Below are positions 1,339-30,557 of a DNA stretch of 31,322 nt, piece after piece. The stretch is from IMG/VR virus record IMGVR_UViG_647533158_000003. One strand, 5' to 3'. Made by a program: the position numbers and the translations under genes. The stretch is from a virus (Duplodnaviria > Heunggongvirae > Uroviricota > Caudoviricetes). Within the stretch, counting starts at the first letter, position 1. Each line of letters begins with the position of its first letter. The notes below the pieces were generated by a model, which was not told the DNA's origin, searched no databases, and saw only the letters and a program-made list of their open reading frames with translations.

Positions 1339-1962
1339 TTATTTTATCGTCAGAACAACGCGGCCTATGATTTTTATGTCGTCAATTCCGCAATCAAATG
1401 CCATACCAACACCGCTAACTCTGACTTTTCGTACCGGAATCCGTGTAAGAGTGCGGACGCTTGTTTTTCCTTCAACTTCAACCAACCAATCATCGTCATA
1501 AACTTCAGAATAAGACTGGTCAACAATGTACTGAACAAGGCCATCCAGAACACAAATCGGTTGTTGCGGTAAGGGCTTACCAGGCAGGAAGATGACTTTA
1601 TCAAGCATAAGTGTGCCAGCGTCATAGAGTTGGCCATCAACAATCTTGCTGCGCGGTATTTTGAGTATGTCTAATTCATCATCATTAAATTTACGTCCCT
1701 GTCCTGTCGCCAGCCACTCCAGATTAGCGCCTGTTTCGGCTACACATTTCACGACAATGTCTGCCGGGAAAACTCCACGCTTGTAGCGTGAAGAAAGAGA
1801 ACTGGCTGCCATGTCCAGATGTTCCGCGAGCTGTAACTTCTGCGTAAATCCGTAAGCCTCGATCACCCTGTCAAGAATCGGTGTGCTATCTACGTTTAGG
1901 TCGATTTTAAATGTGCTCATAGCGAATCCATAAGTCTCGGTTCGAGAAATTGAAATTGACAC
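1339..1962 (-). CDS. cI: CI-type immunity repressor (phage 186 CI-like); true start possibly at the internal Met (1339..1920)
   Basis: The N-terminal region YGFTQKLQLAEHLDMAASSLSSRYKRGVFPADIVVKCVAETGANLEWLATGQG resembles the Phage_CI_repr HTH domain. Its stop is 1 nt from the int start (cI-int operon as in 186/P2). The upstream start overlaps the operator-like inverted repeat, so the internal Met start (MSTFK) is more plausible. Confidence 0.85.
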   Translation of the reverse strand: MSISISRTETYGFAMSTFKIDLNVDSTPILDRVIEAYGFTQKLQLAEHLDMAASSLSSRYKRGVFPADIVVKCVAETGANLEWLATGQGRKFNDDELDILKIPRSKIVDGQLYDAGTLMLDKVIFLPGKPLPQQPICVLDGLVQYIVDQSYSEVYDDDWLVEVEGKTSVRTLTRIPVRKVRVSGVGMAFDCGIDDIKIIGRVVLTIK

Positions 1963-15508: not shown

Positions 15509-16632
15509 CCTGGCCAAATGTGACCGTGAACCAGGTAAACCAGCTGCTGGGTGAAACCAGTGAAGTGGAACGCACGCTGCTGTTTATCGGTACGGGTACC
15601 AAAAATGTGGGGAAGACGCTGGCGGTAAATGCCCAGAGTGATTTTGACGCGCTACTGGGGGAAGGTGACAGCCAGCTGAAAAGTGATGTTCTGGCGGCGC
15701 AGGCAAATGCTGGCCAGAACTGGTGGGGATTCATTCATGTGCTGGCCGCTGATGCTGAAGATGATGCCTGGGTAAAAGCGGTTCTGGCCGCGCAGGTGGT
15801 GTGTTCGGTGGAAGGCGTGGTGCTGTCCAGTGATGTGACGGCAAAAGCCCAGGTCAATCAGGCGGTGACGCTGCGATCTCAGTTGATTGCTAAATACGGC
15901 CGCTGGGTGTGGTTCATTCTGGCTGTTCAGGGGATGCAGGAGGAGGAAGCCCAGGCGGATTATCTGGTGCGCCTGTCCACACTTCAGGAAGGGATTGCGG
16001 AAAAAGCGGTGCAGCTGGTTCCGCGTCTGTGGGGAAATGAACCGGGTGTTCTGGCGGGGCGTCTGTGTACCCGATCCGTGACCATTGCAGACAGTCCGGC
16101 GCGGGTGAAAACCGGTGCTCTGATAAGTCTGGGCAGTGATGAAATGCCGGTTGATGGTACCGGGGAAGTGCTGGCGCTTGCCACGCTTCAGACACTGGAG
16201 GCACAGCGTTTCAGCGTGCCGATGTGGTACCCGGACTATGACGGCTTTTACTGGGCTGACGGGCGCACGCTGGATGTTGAAGGCGGTGATTACCAGTCGA
16301 TTGAAACATTGCGTGTCGCGGATAAAGCCGCACGTCGTGTGCGTCTGCTGGCCATCAGCAAAATCGCGGATCGCTCACTGAACAGCACACCGGGCAGTAT
16401 TGCGGCACACCAGACCCTGTTTGCCCGTCCGCTGCGTGAAATGTCCACGGCGGCCAGCATTAACGGGGTGTCATTTCCGGGGGAAGTGAAACCGCCGCAG
16501 GATGGTGATGTGACCATTGTCTGGAAAAACAAAAAGACGGTGGATATTTACCTTGTGGTACGCACCTGGGAAGTGCCGCTGCAAATCACCATCAGTCTGT
16601 TACTGGATGCCAGCCTGGAGGCCGCAGCATGA
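15505..16632 (+). CDS. Putative tail sheath protein
   Basis: 375-aa ORF immediately followed by a 151-aa ORF, then chaperone and tape measure: the canonical sheath-tube-chaperone-tape-measure order of contractile tails. Sequence is not P2 FI-like by eye. Confidence 0.6.
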   Translation: MTWPNVTVNQVNQLLGETSEVERTLLFIGTGTKNVGKTLAVNAQSDFDALLGEGDSQLKSDVLAAQANAGQNWWGFIHVLAADAEDDAWVKAVLAAQVVCSVEGVVLSSDVTAKAQVNQAVTLRSQLIAKYGRWVWFILAVQGMQEEEAQADYLVRLSTLQEGIAEKAVQLVPRLWGNEPGVLAGRLCTRSVTIADSPARVKTGALISLGSDEMPVDGTGEVLALATLQTLEAQRFSVPMWYPDYDGFYWADGRTLDVEGGDYQSIETLRVADKAARRVRLLAISKIADRSLNSTPGSIAAHQTLFARPLREMSTAASINGVSFPGEVKPPQDGDVTIVWKNKKTVDIYLVVRTWEVPLQITISLLLDASLEAAA

Positions 16633-17084
16633 GTAAACGTATTTCGGGGATGTCGTTTGATACCTACGTTGACGGCGATCTGATCCACATTGAGAAAATT
16701 ACGCTCGATATCACGGACAACAGCGCCGCCGCCCAGACGCGCGGTGTACCGGATGGCCACGTTGATGGTGATGTGGCCGCAGAGGGGGAAATTGAGGTCA
16801 GTTCAAAGGTACTCAGTGTACTGACCGCAAAAGCCCGCGCGGCAGGTTCGTGGCGCGGTATTCCACCTGTGGACTTCCTTTTCTATGCCAAAGCCGGGAA
16901 TGAGGAAGTGAAGGTGGAGACGTTCGGCAACAAATTGCAGGTCAGCAATTTGCTGGATATCGATCCAAAGGGCGGCGGTGTGGCCACGCATAAAATTAAA
17001 TATTTCGTGACCAGTCCCAAGTTCGTGAACATCAACGGTGTGCCGTATCTGGAAGCGGAAGCCACAGAAAACCTGATCGGATAA
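16629..17084 (+). CDS. Putative tail tube protein
   Basis: 151-aa ORF coupled to the sheath gene. Assignment is from position and size. Confidence 0.6.
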   Translation: MSKRISGMSFDTYVDGDLIHIEKITLDITDNSAAAQTRGVPDGHVDGDVAAEGEIEVSSKVLSVLTAKARAAGSWRGIPPVDFLFYAKAGNEEVKVETFGNKLQVSNLLDIDPKGGGVATHKIKYFVTSPKFVNINGVPYLEAEATENLIG

Positions 17085-17094
17085 GGAAGCCGGA

Positions 17095-17397
17095 ATGCAG
17101 GAACATGAAAAGAGCCTCTATTCACTACTGATCATCGGTGCGCTGATTGCCATTGGTAATGTGCTTACCAGTAACGACCCCATCACACCGCGACTGTTCG
17201 CCGGTCGTGTGATTCTGGGGAGTTTCGTTTCAGTGGTGGCCGGGGCGGTACTGATTCAGATCCCGGACGCCAGCCCGCTGGCGATTCAGGGACTGGGGGC
17301 GGCGCTGGGCATTGCCGGTTATCAGGCCGTGGAAATGTGGCTGCGCAGACGTGCAGCAGGTAAGAAAAATGGGAGCGTGACAAATGACCCTGAGTGA
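17095..17397 (+). CDS. Holin (predicted, about 3 TM segments, charged C-terminus)
   Basis: 100 aa with hydrophobic stretches LLIIGALIAIGNVL, VILGSFVSVVAGAVLI and LAIQGLGAALGIAGY, and a basic tail RRRAAGKK. Immediately upstream of, and overlapping, the endolysin gene. Confidence 0.7.
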   Translation: MQEHEKSLYSLLIIGALIAIGNVLTSNDPITPRLFAGRVILGSFVSVVAGAVLIQIPDASPLAIQGLGAALGIAGYQAVEMWLRRRAAGKKNGSVTNDPE

Positions 17398-17725
17398 AAA
17401 ACAACAGTTGTTTACCGTCATGGTGGCAAACCTGATCCACTGGGCAGATGAACACGGCTACCGGCTGACGTTTGGTGAAGCCTCCCGCACACCGGAACAG
17501 GCGGCGCTGAACGCGAAGAAAGGCAGCGGTATTGCCAACAGTCTGCACACCTCGCGTCTGGCTGTGGATTTTAATCTGTTTGTGAATGGCGAATATAAAA
17601 CCCGCACGGAAGATTATCTGCCGCTGGGTGAATACTGGGAATCTCTGGGCGGCAGCTGGGGTGGGCGCTTCAAATCCCGACCGGATGGCAATCATTTCAG
17701 CCTGGAACATAACGGGGTGCGCTGA
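17384..17725 (+). CDS. Endolysin, peptidase M15 family (L-Ala-D-Glu / D-Ala-D-Ala peptidase type)
   Basis: 113 aa with H-x6-D ... H-x-x-E-H zinc-peptidase motifs (SLHTSRLAVD and DGNHFSLEH). GGGAG RBS. Sits between holin and spanins. Confidence 0.8.
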   Translation: MTLSEKQQLFTVMVANLIHWADEHGYRLTFGEASRTPEQAALNAKKGSGIANSLHTSRLAVDFNLFVNGEYKTRTEDYLPLGEYWESLGGSWGGRFKSRPDGNHFSLEHNGVR

Positions 17726-18057
17726 TGGATCGCGTGGTCGTGGGGTGGTTGATTACGGTTGCTCTGGCATTTGTGACCGGCTGGAAGGTGGCCGGTTGGC
17801 AGCGTGACAGTATTGATCTGGTTATCAGCAAATCTGCTACCGCGACCGGGGAAAAGCTGGCGGTTGTGTCCAGTGAATCCGGGCGGAGACTGGAAGACAA
17901 ACTGGAGGCTTTGAAAAATGCGCCACCGCGCGAGATCCGCACGGAAGTGCTTAAGCCGGTATTTACCAATGTGTGTCTGTCTGACGAGTTTGTCAGCATG
18001 TACAACAGCGCCGTCGCCGGTACCGAACGTGCGTTATCAGGAAAACCTGAAAACTAA
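17725..18057 (+). CDS. Inner-membrane spanin (Rz-like i-spanin)
   Basis: 110 aa with N-terminal TM helix VVVGWLITVALAFVTGW followed by a charged periplasmic domain. Start overlaps the endolysin stop (TGATG). Confidence 0.65.
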   Translation: MDRVVVGWLITVALAFVTGWKVAGWQRDSIDLVISKSATATGEKLAVVSSESGRRLEDKLEALKNAPPREIRTEVLKPVFTNVCLSDEFVSMYNSAVAGTERALSGKPEN

Positions 18058-18217
18058 ATGCACCGCGCAGCTGCCACGCCTGAAAGGTATAACGGGGAAA
18101 GATGCTGCGGAACTGCTGACGCTTTATCTTGAACTATATGGCCAGTGTGCCGCGCGTCATAATCAGTTAGTGGATGAAATTAACTTAAGAGAAAATATTA
18201 TTTATGGAAAAAATTAA
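17918..18217 (+). CDS. Outer-membrane lipoprotein spanin (Rz1-like o-spanin), overlapped architecture
   Basis: Starts in the +1 frame inside the i-spanin gene and extends past it (as P2 lysB/lysC do). Lipobox LSAC followed by a Pro-rich segment TTAPSPVP. GGAGG RBS at 17904..17908. Confidence 0.55.
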   Translation: MRHRARSARKCLSRYLPMCVCLTSLSACTTAPSPVPNVRYQENLKTKCTAQLPRLKGITGKDAAELLTLYLELYGQCAARHNQLVDEINLRENIIYGKN

Positions 18218-18461
18218 ACTTTGCGTTTGTGGTGTGGATATTGTTTTTGAACCAAACCAGACGGCGTACAATAAATTTATTAATGAAATGGCAATGGATA
18301 ATAAAGTTGCCCCTGCGCATAACTATCTGACACGTATTGTGACGGCAGAAAGTAAAGACGCACTGGCGGAAGTATTAAAACGTCCGGGGGCTGCGCTTCA
18401 GTTAGTGAGTAAGGTCAATGATATTTACGCGCCCGAACTGGAAATCGAAGTAAAAAACTGA
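18204..18461 (+). CDS. Tail assembly chaperone (P2 gpE-like / lambda G-like), zero-frame product
   Basis: 85-aa acidic ORF directly upstream of the tape measure gene. Ends at TGA 18459..18461, just after the slippery heptamer A_AAA_AAC. Confidence 0.7.
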   Translation: MEKIKLCVCGVDIVFEPNQTAYNKFINEMAMDNKVAPAHNYLTRIVTAESKDALAEVLKRPGAALQLVSKVNDIYAPELEIEVKN

Positions 18462-18652
18462 CAAAGCGAGTCCATGATATTGAACGAAATGGGCTCGAAC
18501 AGTATTTAATTCTCCGCCGTCATTATTTACCTCATGGTCAGGACTCTGTTGACGATATTGCCGCCGCCATATGGCTGGATAACCGTCACTGGGAATATAC
18601 GGGAATAGCCGTGGCCAATGGTGTGGCTAAAGCATTTAAAGGCACTGAATGA
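18204..18652 (+). CDS. Tail assembly chaperone frameshift-extended product (E+E' / GT-like) via programmed -1 frameshift at A_AAA_AAC (18452..18458)
   Basis: The -1 frame is open from 18458 to TGA 18650..18652 (LTKRVHDIERNGLEQYLILRRHYLPHGQDSVDDIAAAIWLDNRHWEYTGIAVANGVAKAFKGTE) and ends overlapping the tape measure ATG at 18649. The slippery heptamer sits at the end of the zero-frame ORF. Confidence 0.55.
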
Positions 18653-20616
18653 AACAGTTAGATTTTACATTAAGCCTGATTGATAAATTGTCGCGCCCGT
18701 TAAAACAGGCGCAGGGCAGCGTCACAGGCTTTGCGGAAAAATCAAAAGAAGCCTTTATGCAAATTGGCGGCGGTGTGCTGGCGCTGGCAGGTACGGGAAT
18801 GGCCATCAAAGGGGCGTTATCACCGGCCATTGAAATGTATGACGCGCTGAATGATGCGGCAGCAAAAGGGATTGATGATTCTGCGCTTAAAGCAGTTCGG
18901 CGTGATGCTCTGCGTTTGAGTACAACCTACGGCGCCAGCGCGGTGGAGTTTGTCCAGTCCACGGAAAGTATTAACGCCGCCATCGCGGGACTGACCGGGA
19001 ATGAGCTGCCGAAAGTGACAAAGGTCGCCAATACGCTCGCTTTTGCGCTTAAGTCCACGGCAGCAGACACGGCAGAGTTTATGGGGCAGATGTTCGGTAA
19101 CTTTTCCGCCGATGCCGCCCGGCTGGGCAAGGTGGAGTTTGCCGAACAGCTGGCCGGAAAAATGGTGTACATGCGTAAAACCTTTGGCGCGGAAATGGCC
19201 GCTATCAAGGATTTGATGGAAGGCGCGCGCGGTGTGGGGACGAACTACGGTGTGGGGCTGGATGAACAGCTGGCCGTGCTGGGACAGCTGAACCGCACAC
19301 TGGGATCGGAAGCCAGCAGCGCGTATGAAGGCTTTATGACCGGCGCAATTGAGGGGGCTAAAAAGCTGGGGCTGTCCTTCACGGACTCTACCGGCAAAAT
19401 GCTGTCCATGCCTGAAATGCTGATCAAGTTGCAGGGCAAATACGGTAAAAGCCTGGAAGGGAATCTGAAAGCCCAGGCGGAACTGGATGAGGCATTTGGT
19501 GACAGTTCGGCGGTGGTGAAACACCTGTATGGCAACGTGGCACTTCTTCAGCGGAACATCACGGAGCTGGGCGGGGCAGATGGCCTGAAACGTACCCAGG
19601 AAATGGCACAAAAAATGGTGAAGCCGTGGGATCGGTTTGTCCAGATCCTGAAAGCCATTCAGACGGTGATTGGGCTGACACTGATGCCGGTGTTGTACCC
19701 GATGTTGAATCGCCTGGCAGATATGGGGCAGACCTTTGCACGCTGGATGCAGTTGTTTCCCAACATTGCCCGCGTTATCGGTTATGCGTCTGTGGCCTTG
19801 CTGGGGTTTGCTGCTGTGGGTGCGGTGGCCAATATCGTGATGGGGGCTTCCCGGTTCATCATGATTGGGTTACGTGGGGTCTGGGCTGCGCTGACGGCTG
19901 TCACGAAGGTGTACACCGCCACGGTATGGCTGGCGCAGACTGCCGTCACAGCCTGGAATGTGACACTCAAATTTCTGCGCGGGGCTTTGCTGGCGGTGCG
20001 TATGGCCGCAGTGATGGCCGGGATTGGCATCAATCTGATGAGTTGGCCGATCCTGCTTGTGATTGGTGCGGTGGCCTTACTTGCTGCGGGTTGCTGGCTG
20101 CTGGTGAAACACTGGGACACGGTGAAAAATGCCGTGATGGAAACAGAGGCGTTTCAGGTCTGCGCCAGAGTCGTGGAATGGCTGGCCGGGGTATTTGCCT
20201 CCGCCTGGGAATTTATCAGTGCGGGCTGGAATGCCTTTATTTCTCTGCTGACCGGGTTTTCTCCGTCTCAGGCATTAAGCGGAATGGCCACCGGCATTGT
20301 CTCCCTGTTTGATAATGTCTGGCAGTCCATAAAAAGCGGTTTCCTGACGTCATGGAACTGGATTGTCGAAAAACTTAATAAAATCCCCGGCGTGGATATC
20401 TCACTGGCAAATGAATCTGCGCCGCCGCTCACCGGTAATGTACTTTCAACGGGAGGGGAATTAAAAGGGATTGATAAGGGCGGCATTAATAAAGCAATCA
20501 GCAGTAATTCTAAATCGGTGACAGATAACAGCCGTAAAATTGGTGAAGTGCATTTCCATACAAAAGAGGCGCTTTCACCGGGTCAGCTAATGGAATGGCA
20601 GGAGCTAAATGCGTGA
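18649..20616 (+). CDS. Tail tape measure protein
   Basis: 655 aa, Ala/Gly-rich with a hydrophobic C-terminal half. Follows the chaperone with frameshift extension. Confidence 0.9.
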   Translation: MKQLDFTLSLIDKLSRPLKQAQGSVTGFAEKSKEAFMQIGGGVLALAGTGMAIKGALSPAIEMYDALNDAAAKGIDDSALKAVRRDALRLSTTYGASAVEFVQSTESINAAIAGLTGNELPKVTKVANTLAFALKSTAADTAEFMGQMFGNFSADAARLGKVEFAEQLAGKMVYMRKTFGAEMAAIKDLMEGARGVGTNYGVGLDEQLAVLGQLNRTLGSEASSAYEGFMTGAIEGAKKLGLSFTDSTGKMLSMPEMLIKLQGKYGKSLEGNLKAQAELDEAFGDSSAVVKHLYGNVALLQRNITELGGADGLKRTQEMAQKMVKPWDRFVQILKAIQTVIGLTLMPVLYPMLNRLADMGQTFARWMQLFPNIARVIGYASVALLGFAAVGAVANIVMGASRFIMIGLRGVWAALTAVTKVYTATVWLAQTAVTAWNVTLKFLRGALLAVRMAAVMAGIGINLMSWPILLVIGAVALLAAGCWLLVKHWDTVKNAVMETEAFQVCARVVEWLAGVFASAWEFISAGWNAFISLLTGFSPSQALSGMATGIVSLFDNVWQSIKSGFLTSWNWIVEKLNKIPGVDISLANESAPPLTGNVLSTGGELKGIDKGGINKAISSNSKSVTDNSRKIGEVHFHTKEALSPGQLMEWQELNA

Positions 20617-22713: not shown

Positions 22714-24288
22714 ATGTCACAGACAACTATCACGCTGGCGTTTGAGCAATGGAAAGCGAAACAGGCCGCGACAGGTGAGGCGGTTTTACTGGACGAGTTT
22801 GTGTTTGCCAGTGTGCCAGGACTGAACCCTGATACCCCCGTTGACCGGAATGAAAAACTGCCACCGGCTGCGCAGATTGTTCACCGGCAGCCCGTTACCC
22901 GCACCGGCGTGGTGAATGAAAACGGGGTGGTGTATTCCGCTGTACTGGGGGCAGACGTGGGGGATTTCAGTTTTAACTGGATCGGTCTGCTGAATAAGGC
23001 CAGCGGAACGCTGGCGATGATTGTTCATGCACCGGCGCAGCAAAAGCTGAAAACGAAAGAAGGCCAGCAGGGTAACGTCCTCACCCGTTCATTCCTGATG
23101 GAGTACAACGGCGCCCAGACCGAAACCGGGATTAATACACCGGCTGAGACGTGGCAGATCGATTTCACTGCGCGTATGGCCGGAATGGATGAACGCCAGC
23201 GTCTGGAAAACGTGGACATTTACGGCGCGGCGGCGTTTTTCGGTGATGGTTGGCTGGTCAGTAAAACCGGTAATCAGTTTTTCGTGACCAAAGGCACCGG
23301 CTACGTGGCGGGGTTACGTGCGCCACTGGATGCAAACAAGAATATTACCGTGACCGCCAAACCGGTAAAGGTCTGGCTGGATGTGTGCTGGACGGGGGCG
23401 TTGACCAGTGTCTGGAATGTTCAGAGCAAGATTACCGTAGCGGAAAGCCTGGCTGATTATGTGCAGAACGGCGTACAGCATTACGTGTTTGCAGTGGCCA
23501 GCATTGATGTGAATGGAAATATCGCCGATTTGCGGCCAAAAGGGACGCTGAATGAGCAACAGGCAAGCAACGATTATCTGCGCAAAGATGCCAGTCTTGC
23601 TGATGTAAAAGACAAACCGAAAGCGCGAAAAAACCTTGCACTAGGTGAGCTGGCGACACTCGACAGAAATGATGTGTTGCCGGTGGGGATACCGGTACCC
23701 TGGCCAACGGATACGCCGCCAGCCGGATGGACATTGATGCAAGGCCAGGCTTTTGATAAAGCGGCCTATCCATTGCTCGCGGGTGCGTATCCTTCCGGGG
23801 TCATACCTGATATGCGGGGCTGGACAATTAAGGGGAAACCGGTCAGCGGTCGTGCAGTGCTTTCACAGGAACTGGATGGCATCAAGTCACATACTCACAG
23901 CGCGAGTGCATCAAATACGGACTTAGGCACTAAATCAAGCAGTGCCTTTGATTACGGTACTAAAACAGCCAGCACATTTGACTATGGCACTAAAACCACG
24001 AACAACACCGGAGCGCATACGCACGGTATTTCTGTTGGTAACACAGGCGCAGGTAATGGCGTTTCAGCGGGCTATAACTCAGGGCTGGGCAATGGAACGA
24101 CGGGGAGTGCAGGGGCGCACGCCCATACGGTCGGTATTGGCGCTCATAACCACACCGTCGGAATTGGTGCTCACAGTCACACGGTGGCAATTGGTGCTCA
24201 TGGGCACGCCATTACTGTGAACGCTGCCGGTAACGCAGAAAACACCGTTAAAAACATCGCTTATAACTACATTGTGAGGCTTGCCTGA
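22714..24288 (+). CDS. Tail fibre protein with C-terminal His-x-His repeats
   Basis: 524 aa. C-terminus has repeats AHTHGISVG / [36 protein letters not shown]. Followed immediately by a tail fibre assembly gene. Confidence 0.85.
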
Positions 24289-29132: not shown

Positions 29133-30557
29133 TTAACTCACTAAGTTCACATAGCTGATTGCTATACGTAAAAAACTGTCGAGTGTATCGACGCTTTCTT
29201 TTATTTCTTTGTTGACACTAATCAGTTTTTCCAATCGTTCATCACTAAAATGACTTGTTATATGAATTAAATCTTCTAATATCGAGACTAAATCATTAAC
29301 AATACTAAGCTCTTTTGAAATTTCATTTTTAATAAAGTAATATTCTTCATTACCGAGTTTATCAATTAATTTATGCTGTAACTTATCCCACTTATCCAAT
29401 AGTCCATATGTTTCTGATGTTATTTTTTTCGTATTTACCAGAATAGTAGAACCTTCACTCACTTCTTTAGCATAAAGTCTATTGTGCTTTAACCAGCGAA
29501 TATTTTCATTTCTTTGTTTCAAGATGCTTTTATTTATCTTTTCGAGTTCAACATGTTTGTTCCATTTTTTTATAATATCATTTATCTTATTGTCTGTAAT
29601 TTCATACTCATTAAGAACGTTGCTGTTAAATGATAATTCTTCTACTTCTTTTAGGGAAGACTCACTAATTTCAATATCTTTAAGGTGGTTTTTTGCCTCA
29701 TGTAGAAAAGTTAATTGGTTAATTAATTGGAAGTTTTGGATGTTGGCTTCGTTGCATATTTCTGTTTTTAAAGACTCAAGAGCACCGTGTGTTTTTCCAG
29801 CGTGTGCAAACCACCAATCCTCTTTGTTATCATCACAAATAAAAATTACATTTTTTATTTTCTCTGATTTGGCTTTTTCAATGATTTCTCTCCATAAATA
29901 CAAATCACCGAATTTGTCCTGAAATTCAATGTTTGTGAAGAATGATTTACTTTTCTTTGGCGCGTCTTTGAATCCTGGTGGTATCTTATTTTCATATCTT
30001 TTTTCACCAAGTGCATTTATTTTATCTATTTGTTCCTGAGTAGGGACTTCACCAACTCTATTAGAGGTAATTATGTCGATCCTGTCACGAATAATGTCAT
30101 GCTTCGATATTTTCTTTTTGTTTTCAATTCTTGGAGTTATCTTTTTATTAATATACTCCTCAATTGGTTTTTTAATTTTACTTTGCAGATCAGAAAGTTC
30201 TTTGTTTAAAGCGCTATAAAGATGTTTTTTTACACTACCAGAAGATAATATTTCTTTCGTATAAATGCTTTCTAATTCATCTTTAATTTTATCTAGGCTT
30301 TTAATACTATCTTCAATTACAGAACGTCTGTTTCTCTGATATTCAAATCCAACTTGGAATGGTATCCAAGTTCTGGGAGCAATAGCATCCATTACTTTAA
30401 GTATATCTTCGCGGGTATGATCTTCACATCTATATAAGTTAAGAAGGCAATTTGTATCAAAAACAAAAAGAGTGGAATCATCCAACCATATATTTGCTAC
30501 TGATTCAGTAGGAGTACTATAGAAACCTAAAAAGGTTGATTTCAAGGGGACCTCCAA
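29133..30557 (-). CDS. PIN-like domain protein (474 aa), candidate nuclease-type defense or abortive-infection effector; start probably TTG (30555..30557, or 30543..30545 after a GGAGG RBS)
   Basis: N-terminal strand motif LFVFDTNCLLNLY is a typical PIN beta-1 signature with the first catalytic Asp; a later acidic cluster VIFICDDNKEDWW follows. The C-terminal half is long, Lys/Glu-rich and helical. The gene is AT-rich and sits in the cargo island. Confidence 0.7.
   Translation of the reverse strand: MEVPLKSTFLGFYSTPTESVANIWLDDSTLFVFDTNCLLNLYRCEDHTREDILKVMDAIAPRTWIPFQVGFEYQRNRRSVIEDSIKSLDKIKDELESIYTKEILSSGSVKKHLYSALNKELSDLQSKIKKPIEEYINKKITPRIENKKKISKHDIIRDRIDIITSNRVGEVPTQEQIDKINALGEKRYENKIPPGFKDAPKKSKSFFTNIEFQDKFGDLYLWREIIEKAKSEKIKNVIFICDDNKEDWWFAHAGKTHGALESLKTEICNEANIQNFQLINQLTFLHEAKNHLKDIEISESSLKEVEELSFNSNVLNEYEITDNKINDIIKKWNKHVELEKINKSILKQRNENIRWLKHNRLYAKEVSEGSTILVNTKKITSETYGLLDKWDKLQHKLIDKLGNEEYYFIKNEISKELSIVNDLVSILEDLIHITSHFSDERLEKLISVNKEIKESVDTLDSFLRIAISYVNLVS

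What the first reader, a model, noticed from the sequence alone, without database searches (positions are those of the whole stretch)
18204..18652. Programmed -1 ribosomal frameshift in the tail assembly chaperone at A_AAA_AAC
The heptamer A AAA AAC (18452..18458) lies at the very end of the 85-aa chaperone ORF. The -1 frame is open for 65 further codons and stops at 18650..18652, overlapping the tape measure start codon. This is the conserved G/GT (P2 E/E') arrangement, but P2 itself uses a T-rich slippery site, so the heptamer here is a different solution.
Basis: partly seen in the sequence, partly recalled or inferred. Interest (0 to 1): 0.5.

Follow-up and report, generated by a model that had tools for sequence, protein, structure and literature searches.

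The report
Tail chaperone frameshift at A_AAA_AAC
This E. coli prophage almost certainly makes its short and long tail-assembly chaperones by a programmed backward ribosome slip on AAAAAAC, which is a known phage strategy, but genome pipelines annotate the slipped-frame part as a separate protein of unknown function.

Summary
The 85-aa ORF 18204..18461 (Pfam Phage_TAC_10) ends in GTA AAA AAC TGA. The heptamer A_AAA_AAC (18452-18458) is in the correct frame. The -1 frame then runs 64 more codons to TGA 18650-18652, which overlaps the tape-measure ATG (18649). The fusion would be 149 aa.

Across 152 related loci the heptamer is AAAAAAC in 148 and AAAAAAA in 2. It abuts the 0-frame stop in all of these. 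Its three synonymous third positions are invariant in 118 distinct sequences.

Codon periodicity switches from frame 0 to frame -1 at the heptamer. The -1 part matches Pfam DUF6890. It has no conserved start codon and is never found fused in frame.

An 8-9 bp hairpin lies 8 nt downstream (18467-18497). Compensatory changes support it within the enterobacterial clade only.

The arrangement matches lambda G/GT and P2 E/E+E', but the proteins belong to different sequence families. The heptamer is the one used by IS1 and is inefficient in E. coli.

Haemophilus phage HP1 has the same signal. One relative, Pseudoalteromonas phage ACA1, already annotates the frameshift.

Verdict: real, and a new member of a known kind. 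Its main value is as an annotation correction.

The parts
18204..18461 (+). Tail assembly chaperone ORF (G-like, 85 aa), including its UGA stop
   Evidence: ORF confirmed. Pfam PF10963 Phage_TAC_10 at E 1.6e-36. AlphaFold2 model has pLDDT 91.9, and its best PDB match is 3fgx_A at TM 0.74, which PMC9603447 lists as a tail assembly chaperone. RefSeq calls the identical ORF 'putative phage tail assembly chaperone'.
18419..18421 (+). Last stop codon (TGA) in the -1 frame upstream of the shift site; it bounds the 37-nt overlap 18422-18458
   Evidence: In most relatives this boundary lies only 10 nt before the 0-frame stop, as the TGA in ATTGAAG.
18452..18458 (+). Slippery heptamer A_AAA_AAC (P-site AAA Lys84, A-site AAC Asn85)
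   Evidence: Present in 148 of 152 loci, and AAAAAAA in 2 more. Invariant at its synonymous positions. Also present in Haemophilus phage HP1 orf26 at 42% protein identity.
18459..18461 (+). 0-frame stop UGA directly 3' of the heptamer; a possible 'shifty stop' stimulator
   Evidence: Adjacent to the heptamer in 150 of 152 loci (over all 152 loci the stop codons are TGA 84, TAA 61, TAG 7) and in HP1. A stimulatory role is inferred, not shown.
18467..18497 (+). Stem-loop 8 nt downstream of the heptamer: arms 18467-18475 and 18489-18497, with a 13-nt loop
   Evidence: Predicted dG is -13.4 kcal/mol, z = -3.56 against shuffles. In 45 distinct sequences the 8-bp core is paired in 359 of 360 cells. 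Four pairs show compensatory double changes, and 0 of 500 shuffles reach the observed values. The A-U/G-C pair switched at least 3 times on a neighbour-joining tree, and all 14 one-sided changes give G-U. The hairpin is specific to this clade.
18458..18652 (+). -1 frame extension (T-like domain, 64 codons plus TGA), read only after the shift
   Evidence: Pfam PF21830 DUF6890 at E 3.5e-24, and phrog_7050. Codon-position entropy fits frame -1 at 0.46/0.33/1.14. No ATG, GTG or TTG occurs before 18611. All database homologues are 26-81-aa fragments with varying starts, and none is fused in frame.
18649..20616 (+). Tape measure protein gene; its ATG overlaps the stop of the -1 extension (ATGA)
   Evidence: Pfam PhageMin_Tail at E 1.2e-22. 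RefSeq calls it 'phage tail tape measure protein'.

Best explanation
This is a programmed -1 ribosomal frameshift in the tail assembly chaperone gene of an HP1/ESSI-2-like P2-family (Peduoviridae) prophage of E. coli.

Most ribosomes read 18204..18458 and terminate at UGA 18459, making the 85-aa chaperone. A small fraction slips back one base on A_AAA_AAC. In that slip tRNA-Lys moves from AAA to AAA and tRNA-Asn moves from AAC to AAA. This could happen in the P/A sites, or in the E/P sites with the stop codon waiting in the A site. These ribosomes then read CUG ACA AAG ... for 64 more codons and stop at UGA 18650-52 on top of the tape-measure start. The product is a 149-aa fusion whose C-terminal part is what databases call DUF6890.

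By analogy with lambda gpG/gpGT, the abundant short form and the rare long form both bind the tape measure protein. The added domain would recruit the tail tube protein.

The adjacent stop codon and the hairpin 8 nt downstream probably raise the otherwise very low slip rate of this heptamer.

Shown here: the sequence anatomy, its conservation, the frame switch of purifying selection, the lack of an independent start, and hairpin covariation. Inferred: that the fusion is made, its abundance, the roles of the stop codon and hairpin, and the protein functions.
For: - Anatomy.
- Chaperone identity: PF10963 at E 1.6e-36. The predicted fold matches the tail assembly chaperone structure 3fgx and annotated chaperones in BFVD. 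The gene lies immediately 5' of the tape measure gene.
- Heptamer conservation: 148 AAAAAAC plus 2 AAAAAAA in 152 loci, from Escherichia to Xenorhabdus, Aeromonas and Aliivibrio at 52% protein identity. Also HP1 at 42%.
- Nucleotide-level selection: the A of the xTA codon, the AAA codon and the AAC codon are invariant although each is synonymous. The final C is synonymous in both frames (AAC/AAT Asn; CUG/UUG Leu).
- The frame overlap is only 10 nt in most relatives.
- Entropy by codon position switches from frame 0 (0.50/0.35/1.20) to frame -1 (0.46/0.33/1.14) at the site.
- The extension matches DUF6890 and is 61-64 codons in 150 of 152 loci, while the +1 frame closes within 1-28 codons.
- No canonical start exists in the extension. 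RefSeq resorts to ATA or CUG starts.
- 70 profile hits in 1.84 billion representatives are all short fragments starting at variable profile positions, apart from one 1582-aa repetitive protein that is an evident false hit.
- Hairpin covariation.
- A_AAA_AAC is a proven -1 site in IS1 and is the reported g-t shift site in archaeal virus HCTV-2 (PMC4066793 and PMC5009743).
- Pseudoalteromonas phage ACA1, in the same Pfam family, is deposited with a projected frameshift at GTA AAA AAA.
Against: - No protein, ribosome-profiling or reporter data exist for this gene, so the product is predicted only.
- A_AAA_AAC is one of the poorest A-rich heptamers in E. coli: 0.16% without a stimulator, 0.19% with the IS911 stimulators and 0.74% with the strong IS3 pseudoknot (supplement of PMC4066793). 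That is well below lambda's reported 30:1 G:GT ratio.
- The hairpin is not unusually stable for its genome. It falls at about the 13th percentile of local 45-nt windows.
- The hairpin is absent or different in other clades that keep the same heptamer.
- No convincing upstream Shine-Dalgarno-like element is present.
Confidence: 0.85

Rival explanations
1. Transcriptional slippage. RNA polymerase occasionally adds one extra A in the A6 run (18452-18457), so a minority of mRNAs encode the fusion in a single frame. The ribosome itself does not shift.
For: The site is a homopolymeric A run. Two relatives have A7 (L137, L141) and some distant ones have A7 as well. The protein outcome would be a nearly identical fusion, VKKL instead of VKNL at the junction. 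Slippage on A-rich runs is a known alternative route to frame change (PMC5009743).
Against: - The run is held at exactly six A's, bounded by an invariant T and a near-invariant C. From my own knowledge, bacterial RNA polymerase slips appreciably only on longer runs of about 8-9.
- The final C is conserved although C to T is synonymous in both frames. That fits a codon-anticodon constraint, not a polymerase one.
- The covarying hairpin lies 8 nt downstream, the geometry of a ribosomal stimulator.
- A second A6 run at codons 2-4 of the same gene is not conserved.
Confidence: 0.07
2. Two separate genes. The DUF6890 reading frame is translated on its own, for example by re-initiation after termination at UGA 18459 using a non-canonical start such as CUG 18458. 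This is how RefSeq currently annotates it.
For: RefSeq and UniProt list hundreds of stand-alone 'DUF6890 family proteins'. Some are 64 aa and begin at the CUG that overlaps the stop, for example P0122, seen on 829 contigs. The C-UGA overlap resembles the AUGA coupling motif.
Against: - There is no ATG, GTG or TTG in this frame before 18611.
- The codon at the would-be start is CUG, CUA or AUA in different relatives, so it is not conserved as an initiator.
- Annotated starts vary from profile position 2 to 36, which is the signature of gene-caller fragments.
- This model does not explain invariance of the heptamer's synonymous positions.
Confidence: 0.04
3. No recoding. The -1 open frame is a non-functional remnant or a chance open frame, and only the 85-aa protein is made.
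For: AAAAAAC is not rare in the window, at 14 copies against 9.7 expected. The heptamer is intrinsically inefficient in E. coli.
Against: - The -1 frame shows the same strength of purifying selection as the chaperone itself.
- It matches a Pfam family.
- It keeps its length (61-64 codons) and its end at the tape-measure start in 150 of 152 loci across several bacterial families.
Confidence: 0.02

Closest known systems
Phage lambda gpG/gpGT, the conserved tail assembly chaperone frameshift (Levin 1993 and Xu, Hendrix & Duda 2004, as cited in PMC5009743)
   Same: Two overlapping ORFs lie just upstream of the tape measure gene. A -1 shift near the end of the first ORF gives a rare long form that shares its N-terminus with an abundant short form. 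The G-domain has a tail assembly chaperone fold.
   Different: The heptamer differs: lambda uses G_GGA_AAG (my own knowledge). There is no detectable sequence similarity. Here the heptamer is the last two sense codons and abuts the stop. Here the virus is a contractile-tailed P2-family phage, and the lysis cassette sits between the tube gene and the chaperone gene.
Phage P2 E / E+E' (Christie 2002; described in PMC3091744)
   Same: Same virus family (Peduoviridae) and same gene position in front of the tape measure gene T. Product sizes are similar (91 and 142 aa against 85 and 149 aa). The extension ends overlapping the tape-measure start.
   Different: P2 slips on T_TTT_TTG, 18 nt before the E stop, and no downstream hairpin is reported. 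P2 E+E' belongs to PF10109 plus PF06528, whereas this protein belongs to PF10963 plus PF21830. BLASTP between the two fusions gives E = 0.12.
Haemophilus phage HP1 orf26 and Pseudoalteromonas phage ACA1 gp36/gp36a (same Pfam family, PF10963)
   Same: These are true homologues. HP1 orf26 ends GTA AAA AAC TAA and has a 60-codon -1 extension containing the same LR.HYLP...AIWL motif. ACA1 is deposited with a joined CDS noted as a 'projected programmed frameshift analogous to that in phage P2'.
   Different: ACA1 uses A_AAA_AAA, and its 0-frame stop is 7 codons further on. HP1 and 57 of the 60 phage records holding this gene do not annotate the frameshift. The hairpin in this window is not shared by these distant relatives.
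IS1 insA-insB' transposase frameshift at A_AAA_AAC
   Same: The heptamer is identical. It is a proven low-level -1 frameshift in E. coli that sets a low ratio of fusion to short product (PMC4066793).
   Different: The gene and its biology are unrelated. IS1 has no established stimulator, and its stop codon is not adjacent to the heptamer (my own knowledge).
E. coli dnaX gamma/tau frameshift signal
   Same: An A-rich heptamer of the form A_AAA_AAN followed by a downstream stem-loop stimulator at a short spacing.
   Different: dnaX uses the highly efficient A_AAA_AAG plus an upstream Shine-Dalgarno-like stimulator, and it gives a shorter product at about 50% (my own knowledge and PMC5009743). 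Here the heptamer is inefficient, no clear SD-like element was found, and the shifted product is longer.

Membership tests
G/GT-type tail assembly chaperone with programmed -1 frameshift | Two overlapping ORFs located between the major tail (tube) gene and the tape measure gene | tested here: met
   The tube gene is 16629..17084 (PF10772). The chaperone is 18204..18461, the extension runs to 18652, and the tape measure gene is 18649..20616. A lysis cassette intervenes between tube and chaperone, as in HP1.
G/GT-type tail assembly chaperone with programmed -1 frameshift | The second ORF is in the -1 frame, has no start codon of its own, and shows protein-coding conservation | tested here: met
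   No ATG, GTG or TTG occurs before 18611. The entropy periodicity switches to frame -1. The extension matches DUF6890 at E 3.5e-24.
G/GT-type tail assembly chaperone with programmed -1 frameshift | A conserved slippery X_XXY_YYZ heptamer in the overlap, in the 0 frame | tested here: met
   A_AAA_AAC at 18452-58. Heptamer of the form A_AAA_AAN in 150 of 152 loci. The overlap is only 10 nt in most loci.
G/GT-type tail assembly chaperone with programmed -1 frameshift | The first ORF has the tail assembly chaperone fold | tested here: met
   AlphaFold2 model with pLDDT 91.9. Foldseek to PDB gives 3fgx_A at TM 0.74 and probability 1.00. The top BFVD hits are annotated tail assembly chaperones at TM 0.63-0.68, but their E-values are only about 0.02. 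3fgx is listed as a chaperone in PMC9603447.
G/GT-type tail assembly chaperone with programmed -1 frameshift | Both the short and the frameshifted long product are made and required for tail assembly | not testable with these tools
   This needs western blot or mass spectrometry, plus genetics.
P2 gpE / gpE+E' protein families (PF10109 Phage_TAC_7 + PF06528 Phage_P2_GpE) | Sequence membership of the chaperone and of the extension | tested here: not met
   The window fusion hits PF10963 and PF21830 only. P2 E+E' hits PF10109 and PF06528. The pairwise BLASTP E-value is 0.12.
P2 gpE / gpE+E' protein families (PF10109 Phage_TAC_7 + PF06528 Phage_P2_GpE) | T_TTT_TTG slippery site | tested here: not met
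   The heptamer here is A_AAA_AAC. P2 has GGTTTTTTG.
Pfam PF10963 Phage_TAC_10 (HP1 orf26-like chaperones) | Score above the Pfam gathering threshold over the full model | tested here: met
   124.7 bits against a cut-off of 25.7, covering model positions 1-82 of 82.
Pfam PF21830 DUF6890 | Score above the Pfam gathering threshold | tested here: met
   84.7 bits against a cut-off of 23.6, covering model positions 1-44 of 44, on the -1 frame translation. The evidence here indicates that this family is the frameshift-encoded C-terminal domain and not a free-standing protein.
dnaX/IS911-type tripartite -1 signal (upstream SD-like element + heptamer + downstream structure) | Downstream stem-loop 5-9 nt from the heptamer, supported by covariation | tested here: met
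   The spacer is 8 nt. The 8-bp core shows 4 compensatory pairs and is paired in 359 of 360 cells. This holds only in the enterobacterial clade plus Pragia.
dnaX/IS911-type tripartite -1 signal (upstream SD-like element + heptamer + downstream structure) | Shine-Dalgarno-like element about 10-14 nt upstream of the heptamer | tested here: inconclusive
   Only UGGA (18439-18442) is present, ending 9 nt upstream of the heptamer. GGAG occurs in a minority of relatives. The G at the third position of the Leu codon is invariant in the same-geometry set but not in L115 or L149.
Rfam frameshift elements | Match to any curated RNA family at gathering score | tested here: not met
   No Rfam family matches anywhere in the window.

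The most novel reading that the evidence does not exclude
The near-invariant combination of a poor heptamer (A_AAA_AAC) and a stop codon placed directly after it may be a distinct termination-coupled -1 signal, a 'shifty stop'. In this reading the slip happens with tRNA-Asn in the P site while the A site waits for a release factor. Release-factor availability, together with the clade-specific hairpin, would then set the short-to-long chaperone ratio, rather than the heptamer alone. The ratio could vary with host physiology, and could differ between relatives that use UGA (RF2), UAG (RF1) or UAA.
Probability: 0.2. Interest if true: 0.5.

Novelty: new member of a known kind. Interest (0 to 1): 0.3.

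Why it matters
This is chiefly an annotation and curation point.

Throughout the HP1/ESSI-2-like branch of the P2 family, the long chaperone form is missing from the records. This branch includes prophages of Escherichia, Salmonella, Enterobacter, Cronobacter, Xenorhabdus, Haemophilus, Aeromonas and Vibrio.

The C-terminal domain is instead filed as a free-standing 'DUF6890 family protein', with forced ATA or CUG starts or truncated N-termini. Linking PF21830 to PF10963 through a -1 frameshift would give that DUF a function. It would also correct hundreds of gene models.

There is a mechanistic point too. This is a deeply conserved natural use, in enterobacteria, of a heptamer that gives under 1% shifting in E. 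coli reporters. It always lies next to a stop codon, and in one clade it has a covarying hairpin. That makes it a convenient natural system for asking how a weak slippery site is tuned.

Tried and rejected
- Sequence search of the fusion against PDB chains found nothing at E up to 10.
- NCBIfam has no model for either part.
- Rfam has no match in the window.
- The fold search of the T-domain model (two helices, pLDDT 79) against BFVD gave only noise at E of 1.2 or worse, so nothing can be said about its structural relatives.
- A joint alignment of the fusion with G-only and T-only homologues mis-aligned the T sequences. It was abandoned in favour of separate alignments, so the full fusion was not modelled.
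- Energy alone does not single out the hairpin. It sits at about the 13th percentile of local 45-nt windows, so the case for it rests on covariation.
- A family-wide conserved downstream structure was sought and not found. Xenorhabdus/Photorhabdus, Brenneria/Pectobacterium, Providencia and Morganella/Aeromonas groups show no consistent helix. Ewingella/Rahnella have a different GC hairpin.
- A possible pseudoknot pairs loop AUUGAA with UUUAAU 7 nt 3' of the stem. It is all A-U or G-U and both sides are invariant, so it cannot be tested by covariation.
- An upstream SD-like stimulator was looked for, and only a weak UGGA was found.
- The primary papers on P2 E/E' (Christie 2002) and on the conserved frameshift (Xu 2004) are not in the library. 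Statements about them come from papers that cite them.
- No paper mentions PF10963, DUF2765 or DUF6890. No paper combines HP1 with orf26 and frameshift, or HP1 with Haemophilus, phage P2, frameshift and tail assembly.
Full report
**Observation**

ORF 18204..18461 encodes 85 aa and ends GTA AAA AAC TGA. AAAAAAC at 18452-18458 is therefore an in-frame X_XXY_YYZ heptamer made of the last base of Val83, Lys84 and Asn85.

The -1 frame is closed by TGA at 18419-21. It is open from 18422 to TGA 18650-52, and that stop overlaps the ATG (18649) of a 655-aa tape-measure gene as ATGA. After Asn85 the -1 frame supplies 64 codons, so the fusion is 149 aa.

The heptamer is the only slippery motif in the 37-nt overlap. 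AAAAAAC by itself is not unusual in the window, at 14 copies against 9.7 expected. The case rests on context and conservation.

**What the genes are**

The 85-aa protein is a full-length member of Pfam PF10963, Phage_TAC_10 (E 1.6e-36). Its AlphaFold2 model (pLDDT 91.9) is closest in the PDB to 3fgx_A (TM 0.74). PMC9603447, citing Pell et al. 2013, lists 3fgx with HK97 gp13 and YqbN as a tail assembly chaperone. The best viral matches are annotated tail assembly chaperones.

The -1 translation matches Pfam PF21830, DUF6890, over the whole model (E 3.5e-24), and also phrog_7050. It is predicted to be two long helices, and no informative fold matches were found.

The window is a complete HP1/P2-like prophage. 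It carries an integrase, GpA replication protein, portal, terminase, P2-type capsid, sheath, HP1-Orf24-type tube, tape measure and tail fibre. It is 99.9% identical to a prophage of E. coli mip270_05. It is about 84% identical to the Peduoviridae genus Quadragintavirus and less to Evevirus and Seongnamvirus (ESSI-2).

**Conservation of the signal**

I collected 151 related loci: 80 viral contigs, 65 genomes and 6 phage records.
- The heptamer is AAAAAAC in 148 of the 152 sequences, counting the window, and AAAAAAA in 2.
- One locus is a broken gene (L150), and one has ATA AAG GAA TAG (L148), which may use A_AAG.
- In all 150 the heptamer is followed directly by the 0-frame stop. Over all 152 loci the stop codons are TGA 84, TAA 61 and TAG 7.
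- The -1 extension is 61-64 codons in those 150. It ends at or within a few bases of the tape-measure start. The +1 frame closes after 1-28 codons.

In most relatives ATT GAA replaces the window's ATC GAA and creates a -1 frame TGA. The two frames then overlap by only 10 nt, AGTAAAAAAC, so the shift cannot occur anywhere else.

The same ending occurs in more distant homologues:
- Haemophilus phage HP1 orf26 ends GTA AAA AAC TAA, at 42% identity.
- Vibrio phage 1.202.O ends GTA AAA AAA TAG.
- Pseudoalteromonas phage ACA1 has GTA AAA AAA with the stop 7 codons later.

**Evidence that the -1 frame is translated and depends on the shift**

In 118 distinct sequences of identical geometry I measured mean column entropy by codon position. 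It is 0.50/0.35/1.20 bits in frame 0 through the chaperone body. It is 0.46/0.33/1.14 bits in frame -1 through the extension. Purifying selection on protein therefore changes frame at the heptamer, with undiminished strength.

Inside the heptamer the three synonymous positions are essentially invariant: the A of the GTA/ATA/CTA codon, the A of AAA and the C of AAC. The C is synonymous in both frames. This is selection on the nucleotide sequence itself.

The extension has no ATG, GTG or TTG until GTG 18611, 13 codons from its end. RefSeq annotates a 27-aa 'DUF6890 family protein' with an ATA start in the identical E. coli sequence. Elsewhere it annotates 64-aa versions that begin at the CUG straddling the stop codon, for example P0122 on 829 contigs.

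A profile search of 1.84 billion representative proteins found 70 hits. One is a 1582-aa repetitive protein that is an evident false hit. The other 69 are 26-81-aa fragments that begin at profile positions 2 to 36. None is fused in frame to a chaperone domain. None of the 120 best homologues of the fusion is longer than 99 aa. The domain therefore appears to exist only behind this frameshift site.

**Downstream structure**

Eight nucleotides after the heptamer, CGAGUCCAU (18467-75) pairs with AUGGGCUCG (18489-97) around a 13-nt loop. The predicted dG is -13.4 kcal/mol, with z = -3.56 against shuffles.

In 45 distinct sequences of the enterobacterial clade plus Pragia, the 8-bp core is paired in 359 of 360 cells. 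Four pairs carry compensatory double changes, and 0 of 500 shuffles reach the observed covariation. Sliding the partner strand collapses the pairing.

One pair alternates A-U and G-C (25 against 20 sequences) with no mismatches. It switched at least three times on a neighbour-joining tree. On one side this is a His/Gln to Arg replacement, and on the other a synonymous Asn AAU/AAC change, which is hard to explain at the protein level. All 14 inferred one-sided changes create G-U. Pragia has CUAACCCG/CGGGUUAG in the same register.

There are caveats. The hairpin is only at about the 13th percentile of stability among local windows. Other clades that keep the heptamer have a different hairpin (Ewingella/Rahnella: GGCGCG-GGUU-CGCGCC) or no consistent structure. 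I regard it as a probable, clade-specific stimulator.

No Rfam family matches. No clear upstream SD-like element is present, and a possible A-U-rich pseudoknot cannot be tested.

**Mechanism**

The best explanation is tandem -1 slippage on A_AAA_AAC. It would give an abundant 85-aa chaperone and a rare 149-aa fusion, with functions as established for lambda gpG/gpGT. There both forms bind the tape measure protein, the T domain binds the tube protein, and the G:GT ratio is about 30:1 (PMC5009743).

A_AAA_AAC is a proven -1 site in IS1 and is reported for the g-t gene of archaeal virus HCTV-2. In E. coli reporters it gives only 0.16% without a stimulator, 0.19% with the IS911 stimulators and 0.74% with the IS3 pseudoknot. 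A_AAA_AAG gives 0.29%, 4.3% and 39% in the same three contexts (supplement of PMC4066793).

Either very little fusion is needed, or the conserved adjacent stop codon raises the rate together with the hairpin. The stop could act as a 'shifty stop' in the sense of Weiss et al. 1987, which is cited in PMC5009743. That step is inference.

**Rivals**

- Transcriptional slippage on the A6 run is not excluded. It is disfavoured by the fixed run length, the conserved C and the downstream hairpin.
- Independent translation of DUF6890 is disfavoured by the lack of any conserved start.
- A non-functional open frame is excluded by the coding signal.

**Comparison with known systems**

Functionally and positionally this is the G/GT arrangement, equivalent to P2 E/E+E'. 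It is not a sequence member of the P2 families. P2 E+E' is PF10109 plus PF06528, slips on TTTTTTG 18 nt before its stop, and has no reported hairpin.

It is a member of PF10963, the HP1 orf26 family. In that family one deposited genome, ACA1, already notes a 'projected programmed frameshift analogous to that in phage P2'. Only 3 of the 60 phage records holding this gene show two chaperone features.

**Verdict**

The finding is real and correctly interpreted, and it is an ordinary instance of a well-known phage recoding event. Three details are new:
- The signal is conserved across the whole HP1-like branch.
- The stop codon is invariably adjacent to the heptamer, and one clade has a covarying hairpin.
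- Pfam DUF6890 can be identified as the frameshift-encoded domain, which is currently mis-annotated as a separate gene.

Noticed in passing
window 18569..18652 (+), and database proteins P0121-P0157: RefSeq annotates the -1 frame as a stand-alone 'DUF6890 family protein'. In the identical E. coli prophage it is 27 aa with an ATA start. Elsewhere it is 64 aa starting at the CUG that overlaps the chaperone stop. This looks like a systematic mis-annotation of a frameshift-encoded domain.
   Followed up: yes
window 17095..18217 (+): A complete lysis cassette sits between the tail tube gene and the chaperone gene, as in phage HP1. It comprises a holin (17095..17397), an M15 endolysin (17384..17725), an i-spanin (17725..18057) and an overlapping o-spanin-like ORF (18029..18217). 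The o-spanin-like ORF overlaps the chaperone start by 14 nt.
   Followed up: partly
window 29133..30557 (-): A 474-aa protein with a PIN_8 domain (PF18476, E 3e-59) lies near the right end of the prophage, on the opposite strand to the tail genes. It has no PADLOC match. It may be a cargo or defence gene.
   Followed up: partly
window 22714..24288 (+), C-terminal ~80 residues: The tail fibre protein ends in histidine-rich repeats ([35 protein letters not shown]). From my own knowledge, these HxH repeats are reminiscent of the metal-binding repeats in some phage fibre tips. This comes from the translation.
   Followed up: no
window 18480..18485 with 18505..18510 (+): The hairpin-loop hexamer AUUGAA could pair with UUUAAU 7 nt 3' of the stem, forming a weak H-type pseudoknot. 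The pairing is present in most of the 44 clade sequences. It is all A-U or G-U and both sides are invariant, so covariation cannot test it.
   Followed up: partly
window 18208..18213 (+): A second A6 run lies at codons 2-4 of the chaperone gene (ATG GAA AAA ATT). It is not in heptamer register. It is not conserved, since ev015 and ev040 have GAA CAA ATT. This contrasts with the invariant 3' heptamer.
   Followed up: yes
locus L148 (Providencia sp. MAG) 1729..1752; locus L150 (Enterobacter sp. EA-1): These are the two exceptions among the 152 loci. L148 ends ATA AAG GAA TAG with a normal 63-codon -1 extension and may shift on the tetramer A_AAG. In L150 the chaperone gene is interrupted, so it is a likely pseudogene.
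   Followed up: no
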